From NCBI RefSeq assembly GCF_002854065.1, contig NZ_CP024147.1: a DNA stretch of 64,000 nt; one strand, written 5' to 3'. The position numbers were made by a program, and so were the translations under genes. The notes below the pieces were generated by a model that made no database searches, was not told where the DNA came from, and saw only the letters and a program-made list of their open reading frames with translations. Shown in pieces: positions 1,259-35,873 of this stretch; within the stretch, counting starts at the first letter, position 1; each line of letters starts with the position of its first letter. Source of the DNA: Escherichia coli. Its GTDB lineage: Bacteria > Pseudomonadota > Gammaproteobacteria > Enterobacterales > Enterobacteriaceae.

Positions 1259-2890
1259 ATGACCAACATCACCAAGAGAAGTTTAGTAGCAGCTGGCGTT
1301 CTGGCTGCGCTAATGGCAGGGAATGTAGCGCTGGCAGCTGATGTACCCGCAGGCGTCACACTGGCGGAAAAACAAACGCTGGTACGTAACAATGGTTCAG
1401 AAGTTCAGTCATTAGATCCGCACAAAATTGAAGGTGTTCCGGAGTCTAATATCAGCCGAGACCTGTTTGAAGGCTTACTGGTCAGCGATCTTGACGGCCA
1501 TCCGGCACCTGGCGTCGCTGAATCCTGGGATAATAAAGACGCGAAAGTCTGGACCTTCCATTTGCGTAAAGATGCGAAATGGTCTGATGGCACGCCAGTC
1601 ACAGCACAAGACTTTGTGTATAGCTGGCAACGTTCTGTTGATCCGAACACCGCTTCTCCGTATGCCAGTTATCTGCAATATGGGCATATCGCTGGTATTG
1701 ATGAAATTCTTGAAGGGAAAAAACCGATTACCGATCTCGGCGTGAAAGCTATTGATGATCACACATTAGAAGTCACCTTAAGTGAACCCGTTCCGTACTT
1801 CTATAAATTACTTGTTCACCCATCAACTTCACCGGTGCCAAAAGCCGCTATCGAGAAATTCGGCGAAAAATGGACCCAGCCTGGTAATATCGTCACCAAC
1901 GGTGCCTATACCTTAAAAGATTGGGTCGTAAACGAACGAATCGTTCTTGAACGCAGCCCGACCTACTGGAACAACGCGAAAACCATTATTAACCAGGTAA
2001 CCTATTTGCCTATTGCTTCTGAAGTTACCGATGTCAACCGCTACCGTAGTGGTGAAATCGACATGACGTATAACAATATGCCGATCGAATTGTTCCAGAA
2101 GCTGAAAAAAGAGATCCCGGACGAAGTTCACGTTGATCCATACCTGTGCACTTACTATTACGAAATTAACAACCAGAAACCGCCATTCAACGATGTGCGT
2201 GTGCGTACCGCACTGAAACTAGGTATGGACCGCGATATCATTGTTAATAAAGTGAAAGCGCAGGGCGACATGCCCGCCTATGGTTACACTCCACCGTATA
2301 CTGATGGCGCAAAATTGACTCAGCCGGAATGGTTTGGCTGGAGCCAGGAAAAACGTAACGAAGAAGCAAAAAAACTGCTGGCTGAAGCGGGTTATACCGC
2401 AGACAAACCGTTGACCATCAACCTGTTGTATAACACCTCCGATCTGCATAAAAAGCTGGCGATTGCTGCCTCTTCATTGTGGAAGAAAAACATTGGTGTA
2501 AACGTCAAACTGGTTAACCAGGAGTGGAAAACGTTCCTCGACACCCGTCACCAGGGTACTTTTGATGTGGCCCGTGCAGGCTGGTGTGCTGACTACAACG
2601 AACCAACTTCCTTCCTGAACACCATGCTTTCGAACAGCTCGATGAATACCGCGCATTATAAGAGCCCGGCCTTTGACAGCATTATGGCGGAAACGCTGAA
2701 AGTGACTGACGAGGCGCAGCGCACAGCTCTGTACACTAAAGCAGAACAACAGCTGGATAAGGATTCGGCCATTGTTCCTGTTTATTACTACGTGAATGCG
2801 CGTCTGGTGAAACCGTGGGTTGGTGGCTATACCGGCAAAGATCCGCTGGATAATACCTACACCCGAAATATGTACATTGTGAAGCACTAA
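1259..2890 (+). CDS. oppA: Periplasmic oligopeptide-binding protein (543 aa)
   Basis: ORF 1187..2890; start placed at ATG 1259 (MTNITKRSLVAAGVLAALMAGNVALA signal peptide) preceded by GAGGGAG; family 5 SBP sequence; first gene of the opp operon. Confidence 0.95.
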   Translation: MTNITKRSLVAAGVLAALMAGNVALAADVPAGVTLAEKQTLVRNNGSEVQSLDPHKIEGVPESNISRDLFEGLLVSDLDGHPAPGVAESWDNKDAKVWTFHLRKDAKWSDGTPVTAQDFVYSWQRSVDPNTASPYASYLQYGHIAGIDEILEGKKPITDLGVKAIDDHTLEVTLSEPVPYFYKLLVHPSTSPVPKAAIEKFGEKWTQPGNIVTNGAYTLKDWVVNERIVLERSPTYWNNAKTIINQVTYLPIASEVTDVNRYRSGEIDMTYNNMPIELFQKLKKEIPDEVHVDPYLCTYYYEINNQKPPFNDVRVRTALKLGMDRDIIVNKVKAQGDMPAYGYTPPYTDGAKLTQPEWFGWSQEKRNEEAKKLLAEAGYTADKPLTINLLYNTSDLHKKLAIAASSLWKKNIGVNVKLVNQEWKTFLDTRHQGTFDVARAGWCADYNEPTSFLNTMLSNSSMNTAHYKSPAFDSIMAETLKVTDEAQRTALYTKAEQQLDKDSAIVPVYYYVNARLVKPWVGGYTGKDPLDNTYTRNMYIVKH

Positions 2891-2975
2891 TGGCAATACG
2901 TGGGGCAGGAGTGTCCTGCTCCACGGTGTCTGATTTTTATCGCATTACAGAAGGCACAGGCCAGAAGGTAGGGCA

Positions 2976-3896
2976 ATGTTAAAATTTATTCTACGTCGCT
3001 GTCTGGAAGCGATTCCGACGCTATTTATTCTTATTACTATTTCGTTCTTTATGATGCGCCTCGCGCCGGGAAGCCCTTTTACCGGCGAACGTACTTTACC
3101 GCCGGAAGTAATGGCCAATATCGAAGCGAAATATCATCTTAATGATCCGATCATGACACAGTATTTCAGCTACCTGAAACAACTGGCGCATGGCGATTTC
3201 GGTCCATCGTTTAAATATAAAGATTATTCGGTCAATGACCTGGTTGCATCCAGTTTTCCCGTTTCTGCCAAACTGGGAGCCGCAGCATTTTTCCTTGCGG
3301 TAATACTGGGTGTTAGTGCTGGCGTTATTGCCGCATTAAAACAAAACACCAAATGGGACTATACCGTGATGGGGCTGGCAATGACCGGGGTTGTTATCCC
3401 CAGTTTTGTGGTTGCGCCATTATTAGTCATGATATTTGCGATCATTTTGCATTGGCTGCCGGGCGGTGGCTGGAATGGTGGGGCGCTTAAATTCATGATA
3501 TTGCCGATGGTGGCGTTGTCACTCGCCTATATCGCCAGTATTGCGCGTATTACCCGTGGCTCTATGATTGAAGTATTACACTCCAACTTTATTCGTACTG
3601 CCCGGGCGAAAGGGTTACCTATGCGGCGGATCATTTTACGCCACGCATTAAAACCTGCTCTGTTACCCGTGCTCTCCTATATGGGCCCCGCATTTGTCGG
3701 CATTATTACCGGTTCTATGGTTATCGAAACCATTTATGGTTTGCCGGGGATTGGGCAACTGTTCGTTAATGGCGCATTGAACCGTGACTATTCCTTAGTG
3801 TTAAGCCTGACCATCCTGGTTGGTGCGTTAACCATTTTGTTTAATGCCATTGTCGATGTGCTATATGCGGTTATCGACCCGAAAATCCGTTACTGA
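2976..3896 (+). CDS. oppB: Oligopeptide ABC transporter permease (306 aa)
   Basis: Full ORF; C-terminal motif IVDVLYAVIDPKIRY typical of the OppB/DppB family. Confidence 0.95.
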   Translation: MLKFILRRCLEAIPTLFILITISFFMMRLAPGSPFTGERTLPPEVMANIEAKYHLNDPIMTQYFSYLKQLAHGDFGPSFKYKDYSVNDLVASSFPVSAKLGAAAFFLAVILGVSAGVIAALKQNTKWDYTVMGLAMTGVVIPSFVVAPLLVMIFAIILHWLPGGGWNGGALKFMILPMVALSLAYIASIARITRGSMIEVLHSNFIRTARAKGLPMRRIILRHALKPALLPVLSYMGPAFVGIITGSMVIETIYGLPGIGQLFVNGALNRDYSLVLSLTILVGALTILFNAIVDVLYAVIDPKIRY

Positions 3897-23221: not shown

Positions 23222-23296
23222 CAGCTCATTTCAGAATATTTGCCAGAACCGTTATGATGTCGGCGCAAAAAACATTATCCAGAACGGGAGTGCGCC

Positions 23297-24178
23297 TTGA
23301 GCGACACGAATTACGCAGTGATTTACGACCTGCACAGCCATACCACAGCTTCCGATGGCTGCCTGACGCCAGAAGCATTGGTGCACCGTGCAGTCGAGAT
23401 GCGCGTCGGCACCCTGGCGATCACCGACCATGACACCACAGCTGCAATCGCGCCAGCAAGAGAGGAAATTTCACGTTCGGGACTGGCGCTGAATCTTATT
23501 CCCGGCGTGGAAATTTCCACGGTCTGGGAAAATCATGAAATTCATATTGTCGGGCTGAATATTGATATTACTCATCTGCTAATGTGTGAGTTCCTCGCGC
23601 AGCAGACAGAACGGCGCAATCAGCGGGCGCAGCTCATTGCCGAAAGACTTGAAAAAGCGCAAATACCTGGGGCGCTGGAAGGCGCACAACGACTGGCGCA
23701 GGGCGGCGCAGTGACGCGCGGTCATTTTGCGCGTTTCCTTGTTGAGTGCGGCAAAGCCAGTTCAATGGCGGATGTCTTTAAAAAGTATCTGGCGCGCGGG
23801 AAAACCGGATACGTTCCGCCACAGTGGTGTACAATAGAACAAGCTATTGATGTCATTCATCATTCTGGCGGTAAGGCGGTGCTAGCTCATCCTGGGCGGT
23901 ACAATCTTAGTGCTAAATGGCTGAAAAGATTGGTTGCGCATTTTGCCGAACACGACGGCGACGCGATGGAAGTCGCGCAGTGCCAGCAATCGCCCAATGA
24001 ACGCACCCAGCTGGCGACACTTGCGCGTCAGCATCATTTATGGGCATCACAAGGATCTGATTTTCATCAGCCATGCCCGTGGATCGAACTGGGTCGTAAA
24101 CTCTGGCTGCCCGCAGGCGTTGAAGGCGTCTGGCAGCTATGGGAACAGCCGCAGAACACCACAGAGAGGGAATTATGA
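23297..24178 (+). CDS. trpH: PHP-domain protein TrpH/YciV, 5'-3' exoribonuclease Rnm (293 aa)
   Basis: ORF begins at TTG 23297 (MSDTNYAVIYDLHSHTTASDG); PHP motif HSHT; start codon choice is uncertain. Confidence 0.85.
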   Translation: MSDTNYAVIYDLHSHTTASDGCLTPEALVHRAVEMRVGTLAITDHDTTAAIAPAREEISRSGLALNLIPGVEISTVWENHEIHIVGLNIDITHLLMCEFLAQQTERRNQRAQLIAERLEKAQIPGALEGAQRLAQGGAVTRGHFARFLVECGKASSMADVFKKYLARGKTGYVPPQWCTIEQAIDVIHHSGGKAVLAHPGRYNLSAKWLKRLVAHFAEHDGDAMEVAQCQQSPNERTQLATLARQHHLWASQGSDFHQPCPWIELGRKLWLPAGVEGVWQLWEQPQNTTEREL

Positions 24179-24795
24179 GCCAGTTTTTTTATATTCATCC
24201 TGATAACCCACAGCAACGTCTGATCAACCAGGCGGTGGAGATCGTGCGTAAAGGCGGGGTGATTGTTTATCCAACTGATTCCGGCTATGCGCTCGGCTGT
24301 AAAATTGAAGATAAAAACGCCATGGAGCGTATTTGTCGTATTCGCCAGCTGCCGGACGGTCACAACTTTACCCTGATGTGTCGCGATCTTTCTGAACTCT
24401 CGACCTATTCATTTGTCGATAACGTTGCGTTTCGTTTAATGAAAAACAACACGCCGGGCAACTATACCTTCATCCTGAAGGGGACGAAGGAAGTGCCGCG
24501 CCGTCTGTTGCAGGAAAAACGCAAAACCATCGGTATGCGTGTGCCTTCTAACCCGATTGCGCAGGCGTTGCTTGAAGCACTGGGCGAACCGATGCTTTCC
24601 ACTTCGCTAATGCTGCCAGGCAGCGAATTTACCGAATCCGATCCCGAAGAAATTAAAGACCGTCTGGAAAAACAGGTAGATTTGATTATTCACGGCGGCT
24701 ATCTCGGGCAGAAACCAACAACGGTTATTGATCTTACCGATGATACGCCGGTCGTGGTGCGTGAAGGCGTAGGTGATGTGAAGCCTTTCTTATAA
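24175..24795 (+). CDS. yciO: YrdC/Sua5-family dsRNA-binding protein (206 aa)
   Basis: ORF 24139..24795; start placed at ATG 24175 (MSQFFYIHPDNPQQRLINQ), overlapping the trpH stop. Confidence 0.9.
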   Translation: MSQFFYIHPDNPQQRLINQAVEIVRKGGVIVYPTDSGYALGCKIEDKNAMERICRIRQLPDGHNFTLMCRDLSELSTYSFVDNVAFRLMKNNTPGNYTFILKGTKEVPRRLLQEKRKTIGMRVPSNPIAQALLEALGEPMLSTSLMLPGSEFTESDPEEIKDRLEKQVDLIIHGGYLGQKPTTVIDLTDDTPVVVREGVGDVKPFL

Positions 24796-24822
24796 CAAAT
24801 TGCGTTCCACGGATGGAAGACT

Positions 24823-26718
24823 ATGGCAGGGAAGTTTCGCTGCATTTTGCTGTTGATAGCAGGGCTGTTTGTATCATCTCTAAGTTATGCAGAAAACAAG
24901 GAGATCCCTTCTTATGAAGAAGGGATCTCGCTCTTTGATGTTGAAGCCACTCTGCAACCGGATGGGGTGCTCGACATCAAAGAGAACATTCATTTTCAGG
25001 CGCGAAATCAGCAGATTAAGCACGGATTTTATCGTGATTTACCACGACTATGGATGCAGCCTGATGGGGACGCTGCACTGCTGAACTATCATATTGTTGG
25101 CGTCACCCGTGATGGTATTCCTGAACCCTGACATCATGACTGGCATATCGGGTTAATGAGTATTGTCGTGGGCGATAAACAACGTTTCTTGCCTCAAGGC
25201 GACTATCATTATCAAATTCATTATCAGGTTAAAAATGCTTTCCAGCGTGAGGGAGATTCAGATCTGTTAATCTGGAACGTGACTGGTAACCACTGGCCGT
25301 TTGAAATCTATAAGACCCTATTTTCACTCAAGTTCCCTGATATCGCGGGTAATCCATTTAGCGAAATCGATCTCTTTACTGGAGAAGAGGGCGACACATA
25401 TCGAAATGGCCGCATCCTTGAGGACGGAAGAATTGAATCCCGCGATCCGTTTTATCGTGAAGATTTCACGGTACTCTACCGCTGGCCTCACGCTTTACTT
25501 AGCAATGCCTCGGCTCCACAAACGACGAATATTTTCAGCCATCTTCTTTTACCCTCCACATCATCGTTGTTAATTTGGTTTCCGTGTCTATTCCTGGTTT
25601 GTGGATGGTTATATCTCTGGAAGCGCAGGCCGCAATTTACGCCGGTAGATGTGATTGAAACCGATGTCATTCCGCCAGATTACACGCCCGGCATGTTACG
25701 TCTCGATGCGAAGCTGGTTTACGACGATAAAGGGTTTTGTGCCGATATCGTAAATCTGATTGTGAAAGGAAAAATTCATCTGGAAGATCAGTATGATAAG
25801 AACCAGCAAATCCTGATTCGTGTTAATGAAGGCGCGACCAGAAATAATGAGTTATTACTGCCCGCAGAGCAGTTATTACTGGAAGCGTTATTTCGTAAAG
25901 GCGATAAGGTCGTTCTTACGGGGAGACGCAACAGAGTCTTACGCAGGGCATTTTTACGGATGCAGAAATTTTATCTGCCGCGTAAAAAGTCTTCGTTTTA
26001 CCGGCCTGATACTTTTTTGCAATGGGGTGGACTGGCAATATTGGCGGTCATTCTTTACGGTAACCTGAGTCCTGTAGGCTGGGCAGGAATGAGTCTGGTG
26101 GGCGATATGTTTATTATGATCTGCTGGCTTCTTCCTTTTTTATTTTGTTCCCTTGAGCTTTTGTTTGCCCGCGATGATGACAAGCCTTGCGTTAATCGTG
26201 TAATCATCACTTTGTTTTTACCGCTGATTTGTTCAGGCGTGGCCTTTTATTCTCTCTATATCAATGTCGGAGATGTATTCTTTTACTGGTATATGCCAGC
26301 GGGGTATTTTAGCGCTGTTTTCCTGACCGGTTATCTCACTGGTATGGGGTATATTTTTCTGCCAAAGTTTACCCAAACTGGGCAACAACGTTATGCCCAC
26401 GGTGAAGCTATCGTTAACTATCTTGCGCGTAAAGAGGCGGCAACACACAGTGGGCGGCGGCGGAAAGGGGAAACACGGAAACTGGATTACGCGTTGCCAG
26501 GTTGGGCAGTCTCAGCAAACCTTGGAAGAGAATGGGTTGCACGTATCACCCCATCACTCACAGCGGCTGTTAGCGCCCCGGAAATTGCCTGTAGTGGCGT
26601 TTTGTTCTCATTACAGATGCACCTGAGTCTGGGGGCCAATACCAGTTTGTTGGGGCGAAGTTATTCCGGTGGTGGTGCTGGCGGCGGCGCGGGTGGCGGA
26701 GGCGGTGGTGGCTGGTAA
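24823..26718 (+). pseudogene. yciQ: yciQ (DUF2207 membrane protein) interrupted by an in-frame TGA at 25129-25131
   Basis: ORFs 24823..25131 and 25156..26718 are in the same frame, separated only by TGA in the context GIPEP*HHDWHIGLMSIVVG; intact YciQ is ~631 aa. Confidence 0.75.
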
Positions 26719-26931
26719 TCAAGCTGATGTTAATCGAAACAAGCTTTAACCATAAAGATAGTGTAGTATGTTGCGCCTCAAAGCCAGGCCAGTTGAAACG
26801 TCAAGTTCGTTTACTTAAGGCCTGAAGAGTTCAAACAGACTTTACTATCAGTGAGTCAGATGTAAGTTCTGACTCACTGTTGCACAAAAGCATATCAGAC
26901 GCCTGGGAAGGCGACACCAAAAGGAAGCTCT

Positions 26932-27804
26932 ATGAGCGAAAAGCTACAGAAAGTGCTGGCGCGTGCCGGCCACGGTTCTCGCCGTGAAATCGAATCTATT
27001 ATTGAAGCCGGTCGTGTGAGTGTTGATGGCAAAATTGCTAAACTCGGCGATCGTGTTGAAGTTACCCCTGGATTGAAAATCCGTATCGATGGTCACCTGA
27101 TTTCGGTACGTGAGTCCGCTGAACAAATTTGTCGCGTTCTGGCCTATTACAAACCGGAAGGTGAGTTGTGTACCCGTAACGATCCGGAAGGACGTCCAAC
27201 GGTGTTTGACCGTCTGCCAAAACTGCGTGGCGCACGCTGGATTGCCGTGGGTCGCTTGGACGTTAATACCTGTGGTCTGCTGCTGTTCACCACCGATGGT
27301 GAACTGGCAAACCGTTTAATGCATCCAAGCCGTGAAGTTGAACGTGAATATGCCGTGCGTGTATTTGGTCAGGTTGACGACGCGAAACTGCGTGATTTGA
27401 GTCGTGGCGTGCAGTTGGAAGATGGTCCGGCAGCTTTTAAAACCATCAAGTTCAGCGGCGGCGAAGGGATCAACCAGTGGTACAACGTGACTCTGACCGA
27501 AGGCCGTAACCGTGAAGTTCGTCGACTGTGGGAAGCGGTTGGTGTGCAGGTGAGCCGCCTGATCCGTGTTCGTTACGGTGATATCCCACTGCCAAAAGGT
27601 CTGCCACGCGGTGGCTGGACGGAGCTGGACCTCGCCCAGACTAACTATCTGCGCGAACTGGTGGAGCTACCGCCAGAAACCAGCTCTAAAGTCGCTGTAG
27701 AAAAAGACCGTCGTCGCATGAAGGCGAATCAGATTCGTCGTGCGGTGAAACGTCACAGTCAGGTGAGCGGCGGTCGTCGTTCTGGCGGGCGTAATAGCGG
27801 TTAA
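26932..27804 (+). CDS. rluB: 23S rRNA pseudouridine(2605) synthase (290 aa)
   Basis: S4 domain at N-terminus; RsuA/RluB catalytic core; Arg/Gly-rich C-terminal tail. Confidence 0.95.
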
Positions 27805-27843: not shown

Positions 27844-28434
27844 TTAATAATCGATCCCTATCTGCGCTTTTACACCGGCATCAAACGCATGTTTGATGGG
27901 GCGCAGCTCACTCACCGTATCCGCCAGTTCAAGAATATCCCGATGACAGCCTCGACCCGTGATAATCACCGTCTGTTGATGTGGACGTTCATTTAACGCC
28001 TGCACCACTTCTTCCAGTGGCAAATAGTCATACGCCACCATATAAGTCAGCTCATCAAGCAAAACCATATCCAGTGAGGAATCAGCAAGCATTCGCTTTG
28101 CATGTTGCCAGACTTCGCGGCAGGCGGCGGTATCAGACTCGCGGTTTTGTGTATCCCAGGTAAAGCCCGTTGCCATTACCTGAAACTCAACGCCGTGTGG
28201 CTCCAGCAGATTGCGTTCGCCATTAGGCCAGGTGCCTTTGATAAACTGCACGACGCCCACTTTTTTTCCATGACCAACTGCGCGTGTTGCCGTACCAAAT
28301 GCCGCGGTGGTTTTGCCTTTTCCATTACCGGTAAAGACGATGATAATACCGCGTTCATCCTGGGCCTGGGCCACACGAGCATCTACTTTTTCTTTCACTC
28401 GCTGCTGACGCTGTTGGTAGCGTTCATCACTCAT
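27844..28434 (-). CDS. btuR: Cob(I)yrinic acid a,c-diamide adenosyltransferase (196 aa)
   Basis: P-loop GNGKGKTTAAFG; conserved position. Confidence 0.93.
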   Translation of the reverse strand: MSDERYQQRQQRVKEKVDARVAQAQDERGIIIVFTGNGKGKTTAAFGTATRAVGHGKKVGVVQFIKGTWPNGERNLLEPHGVEFQVMATGFTWDTQNRESDTAACREVWQHAKRMLADSSLDMVLLDELTYMVAYDYLPLEEVVQALNERPHQQTVIITGRGCHRDILELADTVSELRPIKHAFDAGVKAQIGIDY

Positions 28435-35105: not shown

Positions 35106-35160
35106 GGTGATGCTGCCAACTTACTGATTTAGTGTATGATGGTGTTTTTGAGGTGCTCCA

Positions 35161-35436
35161 GTGGCTTCTGTTTCTATCAGCTGTCCCTCCTGTTCAGCTA
35201 CTGACGGGGTGGTGCGTAACGGCAAAAGCACTGCCGGACATCAGCGCTATCTCTGCTCTCACTGCCGTAAAACATGGCAACTGCAGTTCACTTACACCGC
35301 TTCTCAACCCGGTACGCACCAGAAAATCATTGATATGGCCATGAATGGCGTTGGATGCCGGGCAACCGCCCGCATTATGGGCGTTGGCCTCAACACGATT
35401 TTCCGCCATTTAAAAAACTCAGGCCGCAGTCGGTAA
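35161..35436 (+). CDS. insA: IS1 InsA (91 aa)
   Basis: [43 protein letters not shown]... matches IS1 InsA. Confidence 0.95.
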
Positions 35437-35858
35437 CCTCGCGCATACAGCCGGGCAGTGACGTCATCGTCTGCGCGGAAATGGACGAACAGTGGGGATA
35501 CGTCGGGGCTAAATCGCGCCAGCGCTGGCTGTTTTACGCGTATGACAGGCTCCGGAAGACGGTTGTTGCGCACGTATTCGGTGAACGCACTATGGCGACG
35601 CTGGGGCGTCTTATGAGCCTGCTGTCACCCTTTGACGTGGTGATATGGATGACGGATGGCTGGCCGCTGTATGAATCCCGCCTGAAGGGAAAGCTGCACG
35701 TAATCAGCAAGCGATATACGCAGCGAATTGAGCGGCATAACCTGAATCTGAGGCAGCACCTGGCACGGCTGGGACGGAAGTCGCTGTCGTTCTCAAAATC
35801 GGTGGAGCTGCATGACAAAGTCATCGGGCATTATCTGAACATAAAACACTATCAATAA
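35355..35858 (+). CDS. insB: IS1 InsB frame; transposase InsAB' is made by -1 frameshift at the A-run near 35410-35420
   Basis: ORF matches IS1 InsB; A6C slippery motif ttaaaaaactc present. Confidence 0.9.
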
Positions 35859-35873
35859 GTTGGAGTCATTACC

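What the first reader, a model, noticed from the sequence alone, without database searches (positions are those of the whole stretch)
25129..25131. In-frame TGA nonsense codon splits yciQ
The two yciQ ORF pieces (24823..25131 and 25156..26718) share one reading frame and are separated only by a single TGA in the context ...GIPEP*HHDWHIGLMSIVVG... A TGG (Trp) codon is the most parsimonious ancestral state. All other ~50 backbone genes in the window are full length, so this is an isolated inactivation, or possibly a low-level readthrough site, in a conserved membrane protein of unknown function.
Basis: seen in the sequence. Interest (0 to 1): 0.4.

Follow-up and report, generated by a model that had tools for sequence, protein, structure and literature searches.

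The report
Recent nonsense mutation inactivating yciQ
One G-to-A change has turned tryptophan codon 103 of the dispensable membrane-protein gene yciQ into a stop in this E. coli strain; it is an ordinary, recent gene knockout at a codon that other strains have also lost independently.

Summary
TGA at 25129-25131 lies in frame in yciQ (DUF2207) and splits it into 102 and 520 codons. The nearest genome, E. coli CUWW06, differs from the window by one base in the 1,896-bp gene: this one, TGG to TGA (W103*). An outgroup also has TGG, so the stop is derived and recent. It is one of seven substitutions private to the window's lineage in 62.7 kb.

Nothing indicates recoding. There is no SECIS-like hairpin and no Rfam hit, and relatives have TGG.

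yciQ is not well conserved:
- About 27% of complete E. coli genomes lack it.
- E. coli B carries yciQ::IS1.
- O157:H7 has a 312-bp in-frame deletion.

The same codon is knocked out elsewhere. HB101 and RR1 have TGA, and strain N61 and several assemblies have TAG, which makes at least five independent events. RefSeq annotates these as "internal stop". The ancestral CCTGG is a Dcm site, and 5-methylcytosine deamination gives TAG there. That explains the TAG alleles. The window's TGA is the neighbouring base, an ordinary G-to-A transition.

Slight UGA read-through, which would reinsert Trp, is plausible in the weak Pro-UGA-C context but untested.

Verdict: an ordinary pseudogene of low interest.

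The parts
25129..25131 (+). Premature TGA stop at yciQ codon 103 (ancestral TGG, Trp). The mutated base is 25131 (G to A).
   Evidence: Searches show the sequence and frame. In one search, CUWW06 differs only at CDS position 309 (G). In one search, the outgroup GDSC2227PM also has G.
24823..25128 (+). yciQ 5' fragment of 102 codons. It holds the signal-peptide-like N-terminus and roughly the first 7 of about 17 strands of the periplasmic beta domain.
   Evidence: Searches give the ORF. One search gives the DUF2207 N-domain match. The AF2 model shows helix 2-18 and an all-beta domain at 34-222. This exact 102-aa product is on record in NCBI and ENA.
25132..26718 (+). Remainder of the yciQ reading frame. 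It is still open and carries no second lesion.
   Evidence: One search shows the frame open to the natural stop. One search shows it is identical to the intact CUWW06 gene.
25127..25131 (.). Former Dcm site. The ancestral CCTGG now reads CCTGA, so the mutation destroys the site. The methylated-C partner is 25130, which would give TAG; the window's change is at 25131.
   Evidence: yciQ has 3 CCWGG sites. Only one of the six possible 5-meC deaminations gives a stop: W103 to TAG.
25156..26718 (+). ORF from Met111 (520 aa), a possible re-initiation product. It lacks the signal peptide and has a weak Shine-Dalgarno context.
   Evidence: One search gives the ORF and the sequence. Gene callers call this ORF separately in other W103* genomes. 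Its expression is inferred only.
25136..25156 (+). Six-codon mini-ORF in the +1 frame (ATG ACT GGC ATA TCG GGT TAA). Its TAA overlaps the ATG of Met111 (TAATG), which is a conceivable restart route.
   Evidence: Read directly. This is speculative.
23297..24795 (+). rnm (yciV) and yciO, upstream genes of the inferred rnm-yciO-yciQ operon. They overlap each other by 4 bp, and yciO ends 27 bp before yciQ.
   Evidence: Searches give the annotation of the near-identical CUWW06. One search finds a promoter-like site at 23230-23258.
26932..27804 (+). rluB, the next gene, 213 bp downstream. It is the only gene that polarity from the stop could affect.
   Evidence: No terminator-like site lies between yciQ and rluB.

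Best explanation
A recent, spontaneous G:C-to-A:T transition at the third base of Trp codon 103 (TGG to TGA) has turned yciQ into a pseudogene in this strain's lineage.

Translation ends after 102 residues. That leaves a signal peptide plus less than half of the periplasmic beta domain, and none of the membrane-spanning part, so the product is almost certainly non-functional (inferred from the model).

The loss is tolerated because yciQ is dispensable in E. coli. A small fraction of ribosomes probably reads UGA with Trp-tRNA(Trp), which would remake the wild-type protein. Some ribosomes may restart at Met111. Both are side effects, not a designed mechanism.

The codon lies in a Dcm site (CCTGG). 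This makes it a population-wide hotspot for the amber (TAG) version of the same knockout. The window's opal (TGA) change hits the neighbouring, unmethylated position and is of the ordinary background kind.
For: Shown by tool results:
- The TGA is in frame and the frame is otherwise intact.
- CUWW06 yciQ differs only at this base.
- Across the whole window there are 15 SNPs plus one IS2 against CUWW06. Polarised with an outgroup, 7 are derived in the window's lineage, including W103*.
- Trp is conserved at this position in all enterobacterial YciQ and is aromatic in most distant DUF2207 proteins.
- There is no SECIS-like fold (z = -0.23) and no Rfam family.
- yciQ is absent from about 1,460 of 5,422 complete genomes. 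It is IS1-disrupted in E. coli B and shortened in O157:H7.
- The same codon is a stop in HB101 and RR1 (TGA) and in N61 (TAG), annotated 'internal stop'. It occurs on at least 5 haplotype backgrounds.
- Trp codons in a Dcm context carry about 7 times more truncation alleles than other Trp codons: 255, 304 and 294 contigs against a median of 36.5 (Mann-Whitney p = 0.007). At those codons the stop is mostly TAG (13 of 15), against 1 of 5 at a non-Dcm Trp codon (Fisher p = 0.014).

From papers:
- yciQ is used as a neutral or 'pseudogene' integration locus, with no biomass effect reported (PMC10659092, PMC11943725).
- CCWGG sites are hotspots at the methylated base (PMC13250602, PMC2715241).
Against: - No reads are available, so a base-call or assembly error cannot be excluded.
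- No expression data exist: the truncated product, read-through and restart are all inferred.
- The contig counts used for the hotspot test are confounded by clonal expansion and by lab strains. HB101 inflates W103*, and W262* reaches 746 contigs with no Dcm context.
- The independence of the TAG alleles assumes no short-patch recombination.
- The function of YciQ is unknown, so 'tolerated loss' rests on its population distribution and on laboratory use of the locus.
Confidence: 0.85

Rival explanations
1. Sequencing or assembly error: the true base is G and yciQ is intact in the organism.
For: The exact 71-mer around the TGA is in none of about 3,450 matching complete genomes. The exact 39-mer is absent from JGI metagenome contigs. 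The window's exact 520-aa downstream ORF is not on record. The only difference from CUWW06 in this gene is this base.
Against: It is a substitution, not the homopolymer indel typical of assembly errors. The window's lineage carries six other derived substitutions in 62.7 kb, matching the seven on the CUWW06 branch, as real divergence would give. G-to-A is the commonest spontaneous change. The same lesion exists in other, independently sequenced strains. The exact 102-aa product is on record on an NCBI contig of 4.64 Mb.
Confidence: 0.1
2. Functional recoding: the UGA is decoded as selenocysteine, or by programmed read-through, so full-length YciQ is still the main or a regulated product.
For: UGA followed by C is the documented weak termination signal in E. 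coli (PMC5289835, citing Poole et al. 1995). K-12 reporters show about 2-4% UGA read-through via Trp-tRNA(Trp) (PMC10570021). Trp is the main residue inserted at UGA (PMC11903333), which here would restore the wild-type sequence.
Against: All close relatives have TGG. No SECIS-like hairpin follows the stop and there is no Rfam match. Other lineages carry TAG at the same codon, which tRNA(Trp) and Sec decoding do not serve. UGA read-through products were undetectable with the non-K-12 RF2 variant (PMC5373646), and this strain is not K-12. The allele is lineage-private and not conserved.
Confidence: 0.03
3. Adaptive loss: inactivating yciQ is beneficial, and the recurrent deletions, IS insertions and W103* alleles reflect positive selection rather than neutral decay.
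For: Loss is recurrent and independent by several routes. YciQ overexpression is listed among growth-impairing membrane proteins (PMC6116040).
Against: Truncation alleles at non-Dcm Trp codons are no more frequent in yciQ (16-42 contigs) than in its neighbours rnm, rluB, cobO and yciK (12-49). The excess at W103 is matched by the Dcm-context codons of cobO, so mutation bias is sufficient. No phenotype is known.
Confidence: 0.07

Closest known systems
yciQ pseudogene alleles of E. coli HB101 and RR1 (W103 TGA) and strain N61 (W103 TAG), annotated 'internal stop' in RefSeq
   Same: Same gene and same codon. In HB101 and RR1 it is also the same stop codon, giving the same 102 + 520 aa split.
   Different: They arose independently. 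HB101 and RR1 sit on a K-12-type haplotype about 97 differences away over 3.26 kb, whereas the window's nearest relative, CUWW06, has TGG.
5-methylcytosine (Dcm, CCWGG) deamination hotspots, the classical source of recurrent amber mutations in E. coli
   Same: The ancestral codon lies in CCTGG. The predicted hotspot product, TAG, is the commonest stop at this codon and at the two Dcm-context Trp codons of cobO. CCWGG sites are described as hotspots at the methylated base (PMC13250602, PMC2715241).
   Different: The window's mutation is at the base next to the hotspot position. That base pairs with the outer, unmethylated C, so the Dcm mechanism does not explain this allele.
Other natural yciQ loss alleles: whole-gene absence, yciQ::IS1 in E. 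coli B, and the 312-bp in-frame deletion in O157:H7
   Same: The consequence is the same, loss or alteration of YciQ, and the alleles are apparently tolerated.
   Different: The lesion types differ. Those alleles are older and fixed in large clades, whereas the window's is a private point mutation.
Leaky UGA stop codons in E. coli, such as nudL read-through and the prfB UGA-C signal
   Same: UGA followed by C, with Trp-tRNA(Trp) competing against RF2 (PMC5373646, PMC5289835, PMC10570021).
   Different: Those are native stop signals, some with regulatory roles. This one is a new mutation with no sign of selection for leakiness.

Membership tests
DUF2207 / YciQ membrane protein family | Matches to Pfam PF09972 (N-terminal domain) and PF20990 (C-terminal domain) above their gathering scores | tested here: met
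   One search gives 81.4 bits against a cut-off of 24.4, and 36.4 bits against 33. NCBI annotates the CUWW06 orthologue as yciQ, a DUF2207 domain-containing protein.
DUF2207 / YciQ membrane protein family | Conserved architecture: N-terminal signal or TM segment, beta domain, TM helices, and a C-terminal Gly-rich tail ending in Trp | tested here: met
   Alignment A1 and the AF2 model.
Pseudogene by nonsense mutation | In-frame stop inside a region collinear with full-length orthologues | tested here: met
Pseudogene by nonsense mutation | Sense codon at that position in the nearest relatives, so the stop is the derived state | tested here: met
   TGG in CUWW06, GDSC2227PM, K-12 and O157:H7.
Pseudogene by nonsense mutation | Loss of the full-length protein product | not testable with these tools
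   This needs a western blot, proteomics or ribosome profiling.
Bacterial selenoprotein gene (UGA = Sec) | SECIS hairpin immediately 3' of the UGA | tested here: not met
   The fold of 25126-25195 has z = -0.23 against shuffles. There is no Rfam match.
Bacterial selenoprotein gene (UGA = Sec) | TGA (or a Cys codon) conserved at the site in orthologues | tested here: not met
   Orthologues have Trp, Tyr or Phe at this position.
Programmed stop-codon read-through | The stop codon and its context are conserved across relatives | tested here: not met
   The allele is private to the lineage. Other lineages carry TAG instead.
Dcm (CCWGG) 5-methylcytosine deamination hotspot mutation | The mutated site lies within CCWGG | tested here: met
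   The ancestral sequence is CCTGG at 25127-25131.
Dcm (CCWGG) 5-methylcytosine deamination hotspot mutation | The change is C-to-T at the inner, methylated C, which appears as G-to-A at the fourth base of CCTGG on the top strand | tested here: not met
   The window's change is at the fifth base (25131), giving TGA. The hotspot change would be at 25130, giving TAG, as seen in L008, L012-L018 and N61.

The most novel reading that the evidence does not exclude
The TGA allele may be a natural hypomorph rather than a null. In the weak Glu-Pro-UGA-C context, Trp-tRNA(Trp) would read through often enough to keep a low, condition-dependent level of fully wild-type YciQ (higher in the cold or with high tRNA(Trp)). 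TGA alleles at this codon would then be milder than the hotspot TAG alleles, and could persist for that reason.
Probability: 0.07. Interest if true: 0.3.

Novelty: already known. Interest (0 to 1): 0.12.

Why it matters
It matters little for biology at large. It is a correct pseudogene call for annotation: one gene, not two.

It adds one more case showing that yciQ (DUF2207, function unknown) is expendable in E. coli. That fits its use as a 'neutral' integration locus.

The side result is a tidy population-scale illustration of a textbook effect. Trp codons inside Dcm sites (yciQ W103, cobO W69 and W93) accumulate amber alleles about seven times more often than other Trp codons. This helps when judging whether recurrent identical knockouts reflect selection or mutation bias.

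Tried and rejected
1. Selenocysteine or programmed recoding. Rejected: no SECIS-like structure, no Rfam hit, TGG in relatives, and TAG alleles elsewhere.

2. My first claim that no complete genome carries the TGA allele. The 71-bp probe found no identical 71-mer, but it could not separate 'TGG + CAT' from 'TGA + CTT', because each is one mismatch. Allele-specific probes then showed TGA in HB101 and RR1 and TAG in N61.

3. The Dcm hotspot as the cause of the window's mutation. Rejected for this allele, because the wrong base is changed. It is retained for the TAG alleles.

4. Relaxed or positive selection specific to yciQ, inferred from the many truncated products on record. Rejected as evidence, because neighbouring genes show the same background.

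5. Searches that found nothing:
- The exact TGA 39-mer in JGI metagenome contigs.
- An exact look-up of the 520-aa downstream ORF.

6. PDB searches. The sequence search gave only Gly-rich low-complexity matches. The fold search gave only weak beta-domain resemblance to ribophorin-1 and to M1-aminopeptidase N-domains, with TM about 0.2. Neither gives any functional inference.

7. PMC12595684 lists yciQ under 'transcriptional regulators'. This is inconsistent with the membrane-protein architecture and was not used.

Full report
**Observation**

The window reads ...GAA CCC TGA CAT CAT GAC TGG... with TGA at 25129-25131. Translating 24823-26718 in one frame gives 632 codons with a single internal stop, at codon 103, and the normal stop at the end. 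The ORF list shows the two pieces: 24823..25131 (102 aa) and 25156..26718 (520 aa from the next ATG). With Trp restored, the protein matches both DUF2207 Pfam domains above their gathering scores.

**Ancestral state and age**

- The closest complete genome, E. coli CUWW06 (NZ_CP182139.1), has an intact annotated yciQ. It differs from the window's 1,896 bp at one position, CDS base 309, G against A. This is TGG against TGA.
- The whole window aligns to CUWW06 with 15 substitutions in 62.7 kb plus one 1,336-bp insertion.
- I polarised these 15 substitutions with the outgroup GDSC2227PM.
  - Seven are derived on the window's branch: one intergenic, acnA synonymous, tonB P121L, yciZ A6V, a small hypothetical ORF N26K, RND permease Q697K, and yciQ W103*.
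  - Seven are derived on the CUWW06 branch, including CUWW06's own nonsense mutation in an RND adaptor gene.
  - One is ambiguous.
- The stop is therefore derived, private to this lineage and recent. No second lesion has accumulated in the 1.6 kb downstream, and no other gene in the window is broken relative to CUWW06.

**Recoding alternatives**

- The 70 nt starting 3 nt before the TGA fold no better than shuffled sequence (z = -0.23).
- Rfam finds nothing real in 24000-27500.
- Position 103 is Trp in all Escherichia, Klebsiella and Serratia YciQ, in the motif RDGxPEPW. It is Tyr, Phe or Trp in most distant DUF2207 proteins.
- Selenocysteine and programmed read-through are not supported.
- Incidental read-through is plausible on published grounds:
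  - UGA followed by C is the documented inefficient signal (PMC5289835).
  - UGA reporters in K-12 give about 2% read-through at 37 °C and 4% at 25 °C, through Trp-tRNA(Trp) (PMC10570021).
  - Trp is the main residue inserted at UGA (PMC11903333), so read-through here would recreate the wild-type protein.
  - However, K-12 carries a weak RF2. With the E. coli B RF2, UGA read-through products were undetectable (PMC5373646), and this strain is not K-12. I expect well under 1-2%. This is inference.
- A restart at Met111 (25156) is conceivable. A six-codon +1-frame ORF (25136-25156) ends in TAATG, overlapping that ATG. The product would lack the signal peptide.

**What is lost**

An AlphaFold model (mean pLDDT 75.7) shows these parts:
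- an N-terminal helix at 2-18, which looks like a signal peptide;
- an all-beta domain at 34-222;
- a TM helix at 246-267;
- an alpha/beta cytoplasmic region;
- a helical membrane bundle reaching about residue 605;
- a disordered Gly-rich tail.

The stop removes more than half of the beta domain and everything after it. No solved relative exists. Fold matches are weak and limited to the beta domain. The function is unknown. The only experimental paper on a DUF2207 protein reports stress-tolerance and biofilm defects in a Streptococcus mutans mutant (PMC10457818).

**How conserved yciQ is**

- Only 3,976 of 5,426 complete E. coli genomes match yciQ, even in distant mode.
- A probe spanning yciO-yciQ-rluB matches 5,422 genomes, but only 3,961 cover at least 80% of it.
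- In the others yciO and rluB are adjacent. In O103 ML775, for example, 2,102 bp are replaced by an unrelated 66 bp.
- E. coli B derivatives carry yciQ::IS1.
- O157:H7 has a 312-bp in-frame deletion.
- The nearest homologue outside Escherichia is about 56% identical.
- yciQ is AT-richer (46.9% GC) than its neighbours (about 54%).
- Metabolic engineers use the locus as a neutral or 'pseudogene' integration site (PMC10659092, PMC11943725).

**Recurrence at the same codon**

- The window's exact 102-aa fragment is also called in an ENA metagenome contig. There the codon is TAG, on a haplotype only 98% identical.
- A K-12-type 102-aa fragment, named from HB101, is on 255 contigs.
- Its loci show TGA in an HB101 chromosome and TAG in seven other assemblies.
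- Allele-specific probes of the complete genomes find TGA in HB101 (two assemblies) and RR1, and TAG in strain N61. RefSeq flags each as a pseudogene with 'internal stop'.
- This corrected my earlier reading, whose probe could not tell TGG+CAT from TGA+CTT.
- A 3.26-kb alignment places TAG on at least three haplotype backgrounds and TGA on two. In each case the nearest neighbours have TGG. That makes at least five independent events, unless short recombination patches moved the allele.

**Why this codon**

- The ancestral CC-CTGG-C contains CCTGG, a Dcm site.
- yciQ has three CCWGG sites. Of the six possible 5-methylcytosine deaminations, exactly one gives a stop: W103 to TAG.
- CCWGG sites are known hotspots at the methylated base (PMC13250602, PMC2715241).
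- As a test, I looked up the exact K-12-type product truncated at each of nine yciQ Trp codons and at ten Trp codons of the neighbouring genes rnm, rluB, cobO and yciK.
  - All 19 exist in public assemblies.
  - The sixteen non-Dcm codons give 12-49 contigs, with a median of 36.5. The one outlier is W262* at 746, probably a clone.
  - The three Dcm-context codons give 255 (yciQ W103), 304 (cobO W69) and 294 (cobO W93). Mann-Whitney p = 0.007.
- Among the loci shown, Dcm-context codons are TAG in 13 of 15. The non-Dcm codon W107 is TAG in 1 of 5. Fisher p = 0.014.
- These counts are crude, because clonal expansion and lab strains inflate them, but they support two conclusions:
  1. W103 is a mutational hotspot for the amber allele.
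  2. The background of truncation alleles in yciQ is the same as in its neighbours. The counts therefore give no evidence of selection, relaxed or positive, that is special to yciQ.
- The window's TGA is not the hotspot change. It alters the adjacent G, whose partner is the outer, unmethylated C. It belongs to the ordinary G:C-to-A:T background, as does the HB101 allele.

**Verdict**

This is a real but ordinary, recent, lineage-private nonsense mutation that makes yciQ a pseudogene. I put the probability at about 0.85 and leave about 0.1 for a base-call error. The gene is dispensable and often lost in E. coli. The same lesion at the same codon is already annotated in other strains. Read-through and restart remain untested side possibilities. 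Interest is low.

Noticed in passing
window 52101-53431 (5-bp duplication AATAT at 52096-52100 and 53432-53436): An IS2 copy (301-aa ORF = IS2 TnpB, E=1e-219) is inserted in the fabI / TetR-regulator intergenic region, upstream of an RND efflux operon. It is absent from the near-identical CUWW06 and from GDSC2227PM, so it is a recent insertion that could alter expression of the efflux operon.
   Followed up: partly
window 54480 (RND adaptor gene 54387-55541): The window has CAA (Gln21) where CUWW06 has TAA, annotated there as a pseudogene with 'internal stop'. Each of the two near-clonal strains therefore carries its own private nonsense mutation in this 64-kb stretch.
   Followed up: yes
window 24796-26897 versus L007 1158-1223: About 27% of complete E. 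coli genomes (e.g. O103, O8:H28) lack yciQ. An unrelated 66-bp spacer sits between yciO and rluB in its place. yciQ is AT-richer than its flanks. Whether this is a deletion or an ancestral empty site was not resolved.
   Followed up: partly
window 24901-24929: A perfect 13-bp inverted repeat with a 3-nt loop (GAGATCCCTTCTT ATG AAGAAGGGATCTC, with two GATC sites) lies inside the yciQ coding sequence. It is conserved in the K-12, E. coli B, CUWW06 and metagenome alleles, with one mismatch in O157:H7. Its role is unknown.
   Followed up: partly
window 27844-28434 (- strand, cobO); K-12 loci L021-L027: cobO Trp69 and Trp93 both lie in CCTGG Dcm sites. Their truncation alleles are on about 300 contigs each in public assemblies, against 46 for the non-Dcm Trp109. 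At W93, 6 of 7 shown are TAG. This is a second example of the Dcm amber hotspot.
   Followed up: partly
window 26680-26715 (YciQ C-terminus); alignment A1: DUF2207 proteins from very distant bacteria all end in a Gly run followed by Trp (GGGGGGGGW). This tail is among the most conserved features of the family and is predicted to be disordered. Its role is unknown.
   Followed up: no
window 11527 (tonB codon 121), 45445 (yciZ), 47725, 57629: The other changes private to the window's lineage are mostly missense: tonB P121L in the Pro-rich spacer, yciZ A6V, a small ORF N26K, and RND permease Q697K. That is 5 non-synonymous changes to 1 synonymous, as expected for very recent mutations that selection has not yet removed.
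   Followed up: partly
window 35106-35873: An IS1 copy lies between cysB and ymiA. It is shared with CUWW06 (annotated there as IS1B) but absent from GDSC2227PM, so it marks the clade that contains the window.
   Followed up: partly
protein P0013 (Logan contig, 3.9 kb): A chimeric ORF joins the first ~245 residues of SohB to the last ~150 residues of YciQ. This suggests a rearrangement between sohB and yciQ in one assembly, or a misassembly.
   Followed up: no
L003 (O157:H7 FRIK2533) 1501-3084: O157:H7 yciQ carries a 312-bp in-frame deletion that removes the cytoplasmic region between the first and second TM segments (residues ~277-380). It is still annotated as an intact 527-aa protein.
   Followed up: partly
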